Notes: generated from the sequence alone by a model not told the origin. A DNA stretch of 64,000 nt from the human T2T-CHM13v2.0 reference genome, Homo sapiens (GCA_009914755.4 CP086569.2:4032001-4096000), one strand, 5' to 3'. Positions 54,908 to 57,486 are shown, counted from the stretch's first letter. Translations and numbers: made by a program.

Positions 54908-56652
54908 TACACACTTTTCCAATAAGTAACCCACCCCCATTATAGTGATATTAATCTATTCATGAGGACAGAGTCCTCATAACCTAGTCTCCTCTTAAAG
55001 GTTCCAATTCTCAAAATTCTTGCATTAAAGGTTACGTTTCTAACACATGAATTTTTGGGGACACAGTCAAACCATATCACCTTCTCTGGAGATGTTTATA
55101 TTTTTTCTTATGGCTTTGAGTGATTGTCTAGGATTCTACTTGAAGGACTCCATTTAATATTTCTTGCAGGGAAGGTCCAGGGGTGGTAAGCTACTTCAGC
55201 TTTTGTTTGTATGAAAATGTCCTGACTACTCATCTATTTTAGAAATATAGTTTTGCCAGGTATAGAATTCCTGATTGGCAGTTCTTTTCTTCAGTCTCTT
55301 TAAATGTATCATGCTATTATTTCTGTTCTCCAAGATGTCTGATAAGAAATTCACTAGGATAGTCATATTGAGAGCTCTTGCATATGATCGGTCCATTTTA
55401 CCTTGCTGTTTTCAATGTCCTTTTCCTATCTTTCCATTTCAGCAGTTAGATTTTAATGTGTCTTAGGGTCTACGATTTTGTCCTACTTGGAATTCATTGA
55501 GCTTCTTGTAATTGTATATTTATATCTTTTTTCAAATTTGGGAAGTTTTCCATATTTATTTATTCAAATAATTTTTCTGTTTTTTTTTTTTCTTTCTCTT
55601 CACCTCCTGCAAGTTCCTGATGTAGTTTGCATGCTCATCACCTCTAAATCCCATGTTGAAATGTGATCCCTAATGTAGGAGATAGGGCATAGTGGGGAAG
55701 GTTTGGGTCATGGAGGTAAGTTTCTCATGAATGGTTTGGTGCCCTACTCACAGTAATGAGTGAATTCTCACTCTATTATGTCATGTGAAAGCTGGTTGCT
55801 GAAATAGCCTGGTACTTCCTCCCTTCCTCTCTCACCATGTGACATGCTAGCTCTCCTTACACCTCCTGCCATGAGAGTAAGCTTCCTGAAGCCCTCACCA
55901 GAAGCAAATGCCAGCACTATGCTTCTTGTATAGTCTGCAGAATAGTCAGCCAAAATAAACCTTTTTTCTTTATAAATAACCCAGCATTAGATATTAATTT
56001 ACAGCAATGTAAAATAGACTGACATACTAACACAAGATATATTTTGATCTGCTTGGTGATGTTTTACCTCTCTCTTCCCTCCTATTCACTTTTCTTTACT
56101 TTTTTTTTACTTTTCATACTCAATAATTTCTAAAGACTATCGTTCAAGTTTTATGATTGTTTCTTTTCCCTGTTTGAGTTTGCTGCTTAAACCCCCTAGT
56201 GAATTTTATAATTGAGTTCGTGCCTTTTGCAGCTCCAGAGATAGTTAGGTTTTTTTAAATAATTTCTATCACATTGTGAATATTTTTCATACATAGTTTC
56301 TAATTTCTTTTTATGTTTAGTTTATGTTTCATTTTAACTATTTGAGTATATTAAGAAAGTGGTTTTAAAGTTTGGTTTTTTAATTCCAATTCATGTCTTC
56401 TTTTAGGGAAGCTGCCTTTTTTAGTTTATGTTGCTCCTTTAAATGGGTCATGTTTCCATCTTCTGCCTGTAATGTCTTGCCCTCAGGCGTATGAGGATTT
56501 GCAATTCCCCTGCAGGTTTCACGTGCCATGGAACTGGCCCTGCCTTTTGAAGCTTCTGTCGACTGAAGATAGAATTTATACTTATGTTCTTCATATGATC
56601 TTTGATGGAGTTCATATTCCCATAATATATCAGAGTAATGCAGAGAATAATC

Positions 56653-56961
56653 TTTTTTTTTTTTTTTTTTTTGAGACGGAGTCTCGCTCTGTCGCCCAGG
56701 CCGGACTGCGGACTGCAGTGGCGCAATCTCGGCTCACTGCAAGCTCCGCTTCCCGGGTTCACGCCATTCTCCCGCCTCAGCCTCCCCAGTAGCTGGGACT
56801 ACAGGCGCCCGCCACCGCGCCCGGCTAATTTTTTGTATTTTTAGTAGAGACGGGGTTTCGCCTTGTTAGCCAGGATGGTCTCGATCTCCTGACCTCATGA
56901 TCCACCCGCCTCGGCCTCCCAAAGTGCTGGGATTACAGGCGTGAGCCACCGCGCCCGGCCC
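56653..56961 (-). mobile_element. AluYb8/Yb9-type SINE (young subfamily), full length with poly(A) tail (plus-strand T20) and an intact 10-14-bp TSD
   Basis: The reverse complement contains the Yb8-diagnostic 7-bp duplication …CACTGCAGTCCGCAGTCCGGCCTGGGCGACAGAGCGAGACTCCGTCTC. The body is CpG-rich and near-consensus. The direct repeat GAGAATAATC(TTTT) is present at 56643-56652 and 56963-56976. Confidence 0.9.
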
Positions 56962-57486
56962 GAGAATAATCTTTTAGGTAGCCCATAGATGAGTCAGAGT
57001 GTTGCAAACATGTTCTACTCTGCTACTTCTGCCTAACCAAAGGAACACATGATTTCCTCATTTTCTCCTGATTACACTACTATGCCAGGGACGAGATGAA
57101 GCAAGAGTGAATAAAAATACCACAGAATTTTCTAACATATTGAATGTGTCTCTTTCTTGGCTGTGCATCCAATTGGTGGCTATCATTCTTTAACTGGTTT
57201 CAGAATTTCTATAATATTTATTTAGTCAGTCTATAGCTGTTTTCTTAATGTTTTCATGGGGGAATGATGAACTGTGACTTCCTAGACTGTACCTTTTAGA
57301 CATCACTCTCAAAGGCATATTTTAAGATCTAAAAAGTGCTTAGCATGACTCTCATCTTTTCAAATACATTGAATATATTAACTTAAGGCAAAAAATTAAC
57401 ATATTTAGAAAAGGTTAAAAAAGGAGAAAATATGAGAGCATGCTCAAGTAACTTACTACTATGCAGACATCTGGAATTTTAAAATA

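What the first reader, a model, noticed from the sequence alone, without database searches (positions are those of the whole stretch)
56643..56976. Young AluYb8-type insertion with intact target-site duplication: a candidate presence/absence polymorphism
The 7-bp GCAGTCC duplication diagnostic of the Yb8/Yb9 lineage is present. The body is near-consensus with many intact CpGs, the poly(A) is a pure 20-mer and the TSD GAGAATAATC(TTTT) is perfect. Yb8 is an established human-specific lineage with many polymorphic members, so this copy may be absent in some haplotypes. The orthologous chimpanzee site should be empty.
Basis: partly seen in the sequence, partly recalled or inferred. Interest (0 to 1): 0.55.

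Follow-up and report, generated by a model that had tools for sequence, protein, structure and literature searches.

The report
Ordinary young AluYb9 retrotransposon insertion
This is a routine, well-preserved copy of a young human "jumping gene" (an Alu element of the Yb9 subfamily, not plain Yb8) that was pasted into unremarkable AT-rich DNA by the usual L1 machinery. Whether some people lack it could not be tested here; published base rates put that at about one in five.

Summary
A full-length 288-nt Alu lies on the minus strand at 56673-56960. It has a pure T run (its poly(A)) at 56653-56672 and a perfect 14-bp target-site duplication, GAGAATAATCTTTT, at 56643-56656 and 56962-56975. It carries the 7-bp Yb duplication and every Yb8 diagnostic base.

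Two refinements apply:
- **Subfamily:** it also carries 174C>G, the published Yb9 marker, so it is AluYb9. It has two private changes, T101C and A188G, giving 0.7% divergence from Yb9.
- **Tail length:** the "20-mer" tail shares 4 bases with the duplication, so the poly(A) is 16-20 nt.

All 23 consensus CpGs are intact. The element has 25 CpGs, against 0-11 in the window's six other Alus. The nick site TTTT/AG fits L1 endonuclease.

Its short tail, and a first TTTT terminator about 640 nt beyond the tail, make it a poor candidate source element.

I could not test presence/absence polymorphism or an empty ape site. No primate or human population data are reachable with these tools, and all flank searches came back empty. 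Published base rates are about 20% polymorphic and at least 80% human-specific. This is a known kind of element and of low interest.

The parts
56643..56656 (.). Target-site duplication, left copy (GAGAATAATCTTTT). On the Alu strand this copy lies 3' of the poly(A).
   Evidence: A 14/14 exact direct repeat with 56962-56975. These are the only two copies in the window.
56657..56672 (-). Poly(A) tail, seen as a T run on the + strand. It is 16 pure A, or 20 if the TTTT at 56653-56656 is counted as tail rather than TSD.
   Evidence: Read directly from the sequence. The run has no interruptions.
56673..56960 (-). Full-length AluYb9 body, 288 nt, with left and right 7SL-derived monomers.
   Evidence: 288/288 ungapped alignment with 3 mismatches to Yb8 and 2 to Yb9. 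Rfam Metazoa_SRP hits of 58 and 55 bits on the minus strand for the two monomers.
56703..56716 (-). Yb-lineage 7-bp tandem duplication (GCAGTCC GCAGTCC on the Alu strand, element positions 245-258).
   Evidence: Located. The duplication of AluY positions 246-252 defines Yb8 per PMC3831846.
56787..56787 (-). Element position 174 is G (C on the + strand). This is the Yb9 diagnostic C>G transversion.
   Evidence: Its diagnostic status comes from PMC3831846 and PMC4607524.
56860..56860 (-). Private change T101C relative to Yb8/Yb9. It creates a CpG.
   Evidence: It is absent from the MEN1 Yb8 insertion and from the contaminant-contig Yb8 copy.
56773..56773 (-). Private change A188G relative to Yb8/Yb9. 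It creates a CpG.
56829..56842 (-). A-rich linker (A5TACA6) between the left and right monomers.
   Evidence: Sequence; identical to the consensus.
56938..56948 (-). Pol III A box region (TGGCTCACGCC, element positions 13-23), identical to the consensus.
   Evidence: No difference from the consensus in this region. The box position comes from general knowledge of Alu and is approximate.
56877..56886 (-). Pol III B box region (GATCGAGACC, element positions 75-84), identical to the consensus.
   Evidence: The box position comes from general knowledge and is approximate.
56961..56961 (-). One extra nucleotide (G on the Alu strand) between the TSD and the first base of the Alu.
   Evidence: Sequence. 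The base before the left TSD copy is A, not C, so this base is not part of the duplication.
56962..56975 (.). Target-site duplication, right copy. The inferred L1 endonuclease nick lies on the + strand between 56975 and 56976 of the pre-insertion site (5'-TTTT/AG-3').

Best explanation
This is a full-length AluYb9 SINE, a non-autonomous 7SL-derived retrotransposon. It was inserted on the minus strand by L1 ORF2p target-primed reverse transcription.

The inferred steps are as follows:
1. L1 endonuclease nicked the + strand at 5'-ATAATCTTTT/AGGTAG-3'.
2. The exposed T run annealed to the poly(A) of an Alu RNA and primed cDNA synthesis.
3. A second nick 14 nt away on the other strand produced the 14-bp target-site duplication.
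4. One extra G was added at the 5' junction.

The structural hallmarks are shown directly by the sequence. The enzymology is inferred from established knowledge of Alu and L1.

The copy is young. Published estimates of the average age of Yb9 subfamily members are about 2.15-2.3 Myr, so it is almost certainly specific to the human lineage. By base rates it is more likely fixed or common (about 80%) than polymorphic (about 20%). It is unlikely to be an efficient source element itself, because its A tail is only 16-20 nt and the first TTTT Pol III terminator is about 640 nt beyond the tail.
For: - **Match to consensus:** ungapped 288-nt alignment with 3 mismatches to Yb8 and 2 to Yb9, against 13-18 mismatches plus gaps to AluY, Ya5 and Sx.
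- **Consensus validated:** A published pathogenic AluYb8 insertion, said to have one mismatch to Dfam AluYb8, differs from it at exactly one site. A human contaminant contig, L001, carries a 288/288 identical copy.
- **Subfamily markers:** all recalled Y-to-Yb8 differences are present, as is the 7-bp duplication. 174G is the Yb9 marker.
- **Insertion hallmarks:** perfect 14-bp TSD, pure tail, TTTT/AG nick site.
- **Youth:** 23 of 23 consensus CpGs are retained. The element has 25 CpGs (observed/expected 0.88), against 0-11 CpGs in the six other Alus and a window-wide observed/expected of 0.15.
- **7SL ancestry:** sub-threshold 7SL matches for both monomers.
- **Age and base rates:** Yb9 age is 2.15-2.32 Myr. 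2,545 of 3,179 Yb copies are human-specific and all of those are Yb8 or Yb9. 499 of 2,433 are polymorphic.
- **Source-element status:** the hallmark list comes from PMC5531096. The first TTTT on the Alu strand is 659 nt after the body end.
Against: Nothing contradicts the Alu/TPRT reading. The remaining weaknesses are these:
- The species of the window was not established independently.
- Lineage specificity and population status rest on published base rates, not on a test of this locus.
- If the two non-CpG differences arose after insertion, they give a nominal age of about 5.5 Myr. That is older than the subfamily average. With only two events the estimate is very imprecise, and the changes may have been inherited from the source copy.
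Confidence: 0.95

Rival explanations
1. One reading: the insertion is still a presence/absence polymorphism in human populations, so some haplotypes carry the empty site.
For: - The lineage is young and active, and 499 of 2,433 (about 20%) full-length reference Yb copies are polymorphic.
- No CpG has decayed, and the TSD and tail are perfect.
- Divergence of 0.7% from the subfamily consensus matches the 0.8% mean seen in validated polymorphic Alus.
Against: - About 80% of reference Yb copies are not polymorphic, and a set of 1,601 Yb8/9 loci is treated as presumably fixed.
- The tail is only 16-20 nt, whereas 61 of 62 rare polymorphic Yb8/9 copies had tails of at least 20.
- There are no data on this locus. 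All searches for an empty allele returned nothing.
Confidence: 0.2
2. The copy belongs to an undescribed Yb9-derived sub-lineage defined by 101C and 188G. On this reading the two changes were inherited from an active source copy rather than acquired after insertion.
For: - Both private changes create CpGs while no existing CpG has decayed. Only 33 of 242 non-CpG sites can gain a CpG by a transition, so two random transitions would both do so with p of about 0.02.
- Polymorphic Alus typically differ from their consensus by about 0.8% because their sources do.
- New Yb sub-lineages (Yb8a1, Yb8b1, Yb10, Yb11) were found in just this way.
Against: - The CpG observation is post hoc and does not favour inheritance over post-insertion mutation.
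- No sibling copy could be retrieved. The only other Yb copy reachable (L001) and the published MEN1 copy both lack the two changes.
- Text searches for the variant strings found no Alu paper.
- Predicted folding gives no structural rationale. T101C costs about 3 kcal/mol and A188G gains about 2.
Confidence: 0.15
3. An older AluY or AluS already occupied this site in the ape ancestor and was later converted to a Yb9 sequence by gene conversion. On this reading the site would be filled in other apes.
For: Such cases are documented for a very small fraction of Yb loci. From my memory of Carter et al. 2004, fewer than 0.5% of Yb loci are affected; that paper is not held in the library. PMC3831846 also mentions gene conversion among Yb8 and Yb9 copies.
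Against: - Yb diagnostic bases are present along the whole 288 nt, with no mosaic of older-subfamily bases.
- No CpG has decayed, the tail is pure and the 14-bp TSD is perfect. An old insertion would have degraded flanks and tail, as the other Alus in the window have.
Confidence: 0.02

Closest known systems
AluYb9 subfamily (Roy-Engel et al. 2001; Repbase/Dfam AluYb9)
   Same: It has all Yb8 diagnostic bases, the 7-bp duplication and the defining 174C>G. It is full length at 288 nt and has a poly(A) tail and a TSD.
   Different: It has two private substitutions, T101C and A188G (0.7%), and one extra 5' G at the junction.
AluYb8
   Same: It shares the 7-bp duplication and all Yb8 diagnostic substitutions, and is 285/288 identical.
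   Different: It carries the ninth (Yb9) mutation at position 174, so Yb8 is its parent subfamily, not the best assignment.
AluYb8a1 / Yb10 / Yb11 (Ahmed et al. 2013) and Yb8b1 (Konkel et al. 2015)
   Same: It has the same Yb8 backbone, and it shares 174G with Yb10 and Yb11.
   Different: It lacks 259G>A, the T insertion after position 200, and 260G>A. The element matches Yb8 at all of these positions.
Candidate active 'source' Yb8/9 elements (hallmarks listed in Feusier et al. 2017, PMC5531096)
   Same: It is identical to the consensus everywhere except positions 101, 174 and 188. That leaves the A and B boxes and the 5' SRP9/14-binding domain unchanged.
   Different: The tail is 16-20 nt, against the required 20 or more. 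The first TTTT terminator is about 625 nt beyond the TSD, against the required 15 bp or less.

Membership tests
Alu (dimeric 7SL-derived SINE mobilised by L1) | Two 7SL-related monomers joined by an A-rich linker | tested here: met
   Rfam Metazoa_SRP matches at 56671-56825 and 56845-56959 on the minus strand (58 and 55 bits, below the gathering score of 70, as expected for Alu). The A5TACA6 linker is at 56829-56842.
Alu (dimeric 7SL-derived SINE mobilised by L1) | A 3' poly(A) tail and a flanking target-site duplication at an L1-endonuclease-like site | tested here: met
   Pure tail of 16-20 A. The 14/14 TSD is the only pair of this 14-mer in the window. The nick context is TTTT/AG.
AluYb8 lineage | Tandem duplication of 7 nt (AluY positions 246-252) | tested here: met
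   GCAGTCCGCAGTCC at element positions 245-258, window 56703-56716. The definition comes from PMC3831846.
AluYb8 lineage | Yb8 diagnostic substitutions relative to AluY, including positions 64, 144 and the C>G before the duplication | tested here: met
   The Yb8 state is present at positions 57, 64, 89, 96, 98, 144, 211, 236 and 248. The consensus was cross-checked against a published Yb8 insertion and an exact-consensus contaminant copy.
AluYb9 | C>G transversion at position 174 on a Yb8 background | tested here: met
   G at element position 174, window 56787. Its diagnostic status is given.
AluYb8a1 / Yb10 / Yb11 | 259G>A; for Yb11 also a T insertion after position 200 | tested here: not met
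   The element matches Yb8 at position 259 and the alignment has no indel.
AluYb8b1 | 260G>A | tested here: not met
   The only differences from Yb8 are at positions 101, 174 and 188.
Human-specific insertion | Empty orthologous site in chimpanzee and other great apes | not testable with these tools
   No primate genomes are available. Exact flank searches of metagenome, prokaryote-genome and viral collections found nothing, and so did protein-level flank searches.
Polymorphic mobile-element insertion | Both filled and empty alleles observed in humans | not testable with these tools
   No population data are available. Paper supplements and full-text searches for the TSD and junction strings were empty.
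Active Alu source element (four hallmarks, PMC5531096) | Intact A and B boxes and SRP9/14 sites | tested here: met
   The body is identical to the consensus except at positions 101, 174 and 188, which lie outside those motifs. The motif positions come from general knowledge.
Active Alu source element (four hallmarks, PMC5531096) | Uninterrupted poly(A) of at least 20 nt | tested here: inconclusive
   The tail is 16 A, plus 4 more that are shared with the TSD.
Active Alu source element (four hallmarks, PMC5531096) | TTTT Pol III terminator within 15 bp downstream of the TSD | tested here: not met
   The first TTTT on the Alu strand is 659 nt after the body end, about 625 nt past the TSD.

The most novel reading that the evidence does not exclude
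The copy is both a segregating presence/absence polymorphism and a member of an undescribed, recently active Yb9-derived sub-lineage. That sub-lineage would be marked by two CpG-creating changes (101C, 188G) inherited from its source.
Probability: 0.05. Interest if true: 0.2.

Novelty: already known. Interest (0 to 1): 0.08.

Why it matters
It matters little beyond bookkeeping. If the copy is polymorphic, it would be one more identical-by-descent ancestry marker among several hundred known polymorphic Yb copies. It is also a possible substrate for Alu/Alu recombination with the Alu cluster about 2 kb away.

Two results are useful here. The subfamily is corrected from Yb8 to Yb9. And the features that looked 'special' (intact CpGs, perfect TSD, pure tail) are simply what an average Yb9 copy aged 2 Myr or less looks like.

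Tried and rejected
**1. Looking for the empty or filled allele in other sequence collections.**
- Exact searches used the left flank plus TSD, and the TSD plus right flank.
- They covered metagenome contigs (2 scans), prokaryote genome contigs and viral contigs. All returned 0 hits.

**2. Protein-level search for spurious ORFs spanning the junction in human or primate assemblies.**
- An exact look-up of the 106-aa junction ORF found nothing on record.
- A homology search with the 86-aa flank-only peptide found no candidate.

**3. Literature and supplement searches for the TSD, junction and variant strings.** These found no relevant hits.

**4. Identifying the genomic locus.**
- Rfam at gathering thresholds found nothing in the window.
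- Pfam on the flanking ORFs found only retroelement domains.
- A text search with the flanks of the nearby (AGAT)17 repeat found nothing relevant.
- The CNTN4 Alu paper proved unrelated.
- The locus remains unidentified.

**5. Sibling search for copies sharing 101C and 188G.**
- Only one Yb copy was retrievable, a human contaminant in a Campylobacter assembly. It is an exact Yb8 consensus at a different locus.
- Viral contigs held none.
- I rejected a protein search with the Alu-encoded ORF. Clustering at 90% identity cannot resolve a single-residue variant, so the cost was not justified.

**6. Structural rationale for the two private changes.** RNA folding shows no compensatory pattern.

**7. 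Carter et al. 2004 and Roy-Engel et al. 2001.** Neither paper is held in the library.

Full report
**What is there.** Reading 56400-57200 shows, on the + strand, the following order:
- GAGAATAATCTTTT at 56643-56656.
- A run of 20 T at 56653-56672, the first four of which are also the end of that 14-mer.
- 288 nt of antisense Alu at 56673-56960.
- One extra C at 56961.
- GAGAATAATCTTTT again at 56962-56975, followed by AGGTAGCC.

The two 14-mers are the only copies in the window. They match 14/14, and the match stops at the base to their left, which is A in one copy and C in the other. The chance of this 14-mer recurring at one fixed position is about 2e-8.

Rfam scores the two halves of the element as sub-threshold matches to metazoan SRP RNA on the minus strand (58 and 55 bits against a gathering score of 70). 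That is what a dimeric 7SL-derived Alu gives. The mir-1268 and mir-3135 hits at the same place are also sub-threshold. I read them as Alu-derived families (from general knowledge) and as by-products.

- The element aligns to Yb8 over 288 nt without gaps and with 3 mismatches.
- Against AluY, Ya5 and Sx it has 13, 15 and 18 mismatches respectively, plus gaps.

Because the consensus was recalled, I checked it in two independent ways.
- A pathogenic AluYb8 insertion in MEN1 is printed in PMC13479647 and described there as having one mismatch to the Dfam AluYb8 sequence. It differs from my consensus at exactly one site.
- A 709-bp human contaminant contig in a Campylobacter concisus assembly (L001) carries a copy identical to the consensus at 288/288. 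Its flanks are unrelated to this window.

The element has the Yb8 state at every position where the recalled AluY and Yb8 differ: 57, 64, 89, 96, 98, 144, 211, 236 and 248. It also has the 7-bp tandem duplication at element positions 245-258, window 56703-56716.

Its three differences from Yb8 are T101C, C174G and A188G.
- C174G is the published ninth mutation that defines Yb9 (PMC3831846; PMC4607524).
- The element lacks 259G>A (Yb8a1, Yb10), the T insertion after position 200 (Yb11) and 260G>A (Yb8b1).

It is therefore AluYb9 with two private changes, or 0.7% divergence.

**Age indicators.**
- All 23 CpGs of the Yb9 consensus are intact, and the two private changes add two more.
- As an internal control, the six other Alus in the window are 70-92% identical to AluY and keep 0-11 CpGs. 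This element has 25 CpGs (observed/expected 0.88). The window as a whole has a CpG observed/expected of 0.15.
- I used the 0.15%/Myr neutral rate quoted in PMC3831846 and a 6-10-fold faster CpG rate. Zero CpG losses then gives a 95% upper bound of about 4-7 Myr.
- The two non-CpG changes, if they arose after insertion, give a nominal 5.5 Myr, but with huge uncertainty.
- Validated polymorphic Alus average 0.8% from their subfamily consensus. Divergence of 0.7% therefore cannot separate a polymorphic copy from a fixed one.
- The published mean age of Yb9 is 2.15-2.32 Myr.

**Mechanism.** The hallmarks are those of L1-mediated target-primed reverse transcription.
- In the reconstructed empty site...GCAGAGAATAATCTTTT/AGGTAGCC..., the + strand would be nicked at 5'-TTTT/AG-3'. 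From my general knowledge this is a common variant of the TTTT/AA L1 endonuclease consensus.
- The T run would prime on the Alu RNA poly(A).
- A staggered second nick 14 nt away explains the duplication.
- One extra G sits at the 5' junction.

The structural facts are shown by the sequence. The enzymatic steps are inferred from established knowledge.

**Is it a likely source element?** PMC5531096 lists four hallmarks: intact A and B boxes, intact SRP9/14 sites, an uninterrupted tail of at least 20 A, and a TTTT terminator within 15 bp of the TSD.
- The first two are met by identity to the consensus.
- The tail is 16-20 A, which is borderline.
- The first TTTT on the Alu strand is 659 nt beyond the body, because the downstream flank is A-rich and T-poor on that strand.

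I infer low activity. Folding gives no structural meaning to the private changes. T101C costs about 3 kcal/mol and A188G gains about 2.

Neither an empty ape orthologue nor human polymorphism could be tested.
- Exact flank searches in metagenome, prokaryote-genome and viral collections returned nothing.
- Look-ups of ORFs spanning the junction or the flank returned nothing.
- Supplements and full-text searches for the TSD, junction or variant strings found nothing relevant.
- I could not place the window in the genome.

What remains is base rates.
- 2,545 of 3,179 Yb copies are human-specific, and all of those are Yb8 or Yb9.
- 499 of 2,433 full-length reference Yb copies are polymorphic.
- 1,601 Yb8/9 loci are treated as presumably fixed.
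- Rare polymorphic Yb8/9 copies almost always have tails of at least 20 A: 61 of 62.

I put human-lineage specificity at about 0.95 or higher and polymorphism at about 0.2.

**One oddity.** Both private changes create CpGs (TpG>CpG and CpA>CpG) while no CpG has been lost. Only 33 of 242 non-CpG sites can gain a CpG by a transition, so two random transitions would both do so with p of about 0.02. This is a post hoc observation and does not separate inheritance from a variant source from later mutation. A search for sibling copies in the human reference would settle it.

**Verdict.**
- The element is a young Yb-lineage Alu with an intact TSD, but the subfamily is Yb9.
- The polymorphism claim remains an untested possibility of about one in five.

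It is a standard member of a thoroughly described family and of low interest.

Noticed in passing
window 2875-8714 (minus strand): A degraded endogenous retrovirus provirus lies here, bounded by an LTR pair. The direct repeats 2875-3099/8265-8489 and 3215-3325/8604-8714 are 94-96% identical and 5.39 kb apart. Broken ORFs between them give weak Pfam hits to Gag_p30, zf-CCHC, RVT_1 and rve. A 55-61-nt tandem repeat lies inside at 7576-7803.
   Followed up: partly
window 50403-50471: A perfect (AGAT)17 tetranucleotide microsatellite lies about 6 kb upstream of the Alu and is likely length-polymorphic. A text search with its flanks did not match any published marker primers.
   Followed up: partly
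window 54294-54888: A cluster of three abutting or nested + strand Alus, 85-92% identical to AluY, lies about 2 kb from the Yb9 copy in the opposite orientation. In principle this is a substrate for Alu/Alu rearrangement or for inverted-repeat RNA pairing.
   Followed up: no
window 56776-56827 (-) and 56693-56759 (+): Sub-threshold Rfam hits to mir-1268 (68 bits against 83) and mir-3135 (39 bits against 80) fall inside the Alu body. I take these to be Alu-derived miRNA families (from general knowledge), so the hits reflect the Alu sequence and not a miRNA gene.
   Followed up: yes
window 56000-56642 (read on the minus strand): The roughly 640 nt downstream of the Alu on its own strand are A-rich and contain no TTTT at all. 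This is unusual for DNA of about 36% GC and suggests the flank is the sense strand of an old A-rich repeat such as an L1 fragment. Pfam found no domain there.
   Followed up: partly
locus L001 (CABPVN010000112.1, Campylobacter concisus assembly), 709 bp: This contig is human DNA: an exact-consensus AluYb8 with an interrupted A-rich tail and unique flanks. It is contamination in a bacterial genome assembly.
   Followed up: yes
window 49700-50000 (+ strand): Stop-free frames here give a clear RVT_1 match (E = 8.5e-11), another retroelement reverse-transcriptase fragment. L1 ORF2-like peptides are also visible near 100-400 and 47.9-48.9 kb.
   Followed up: no
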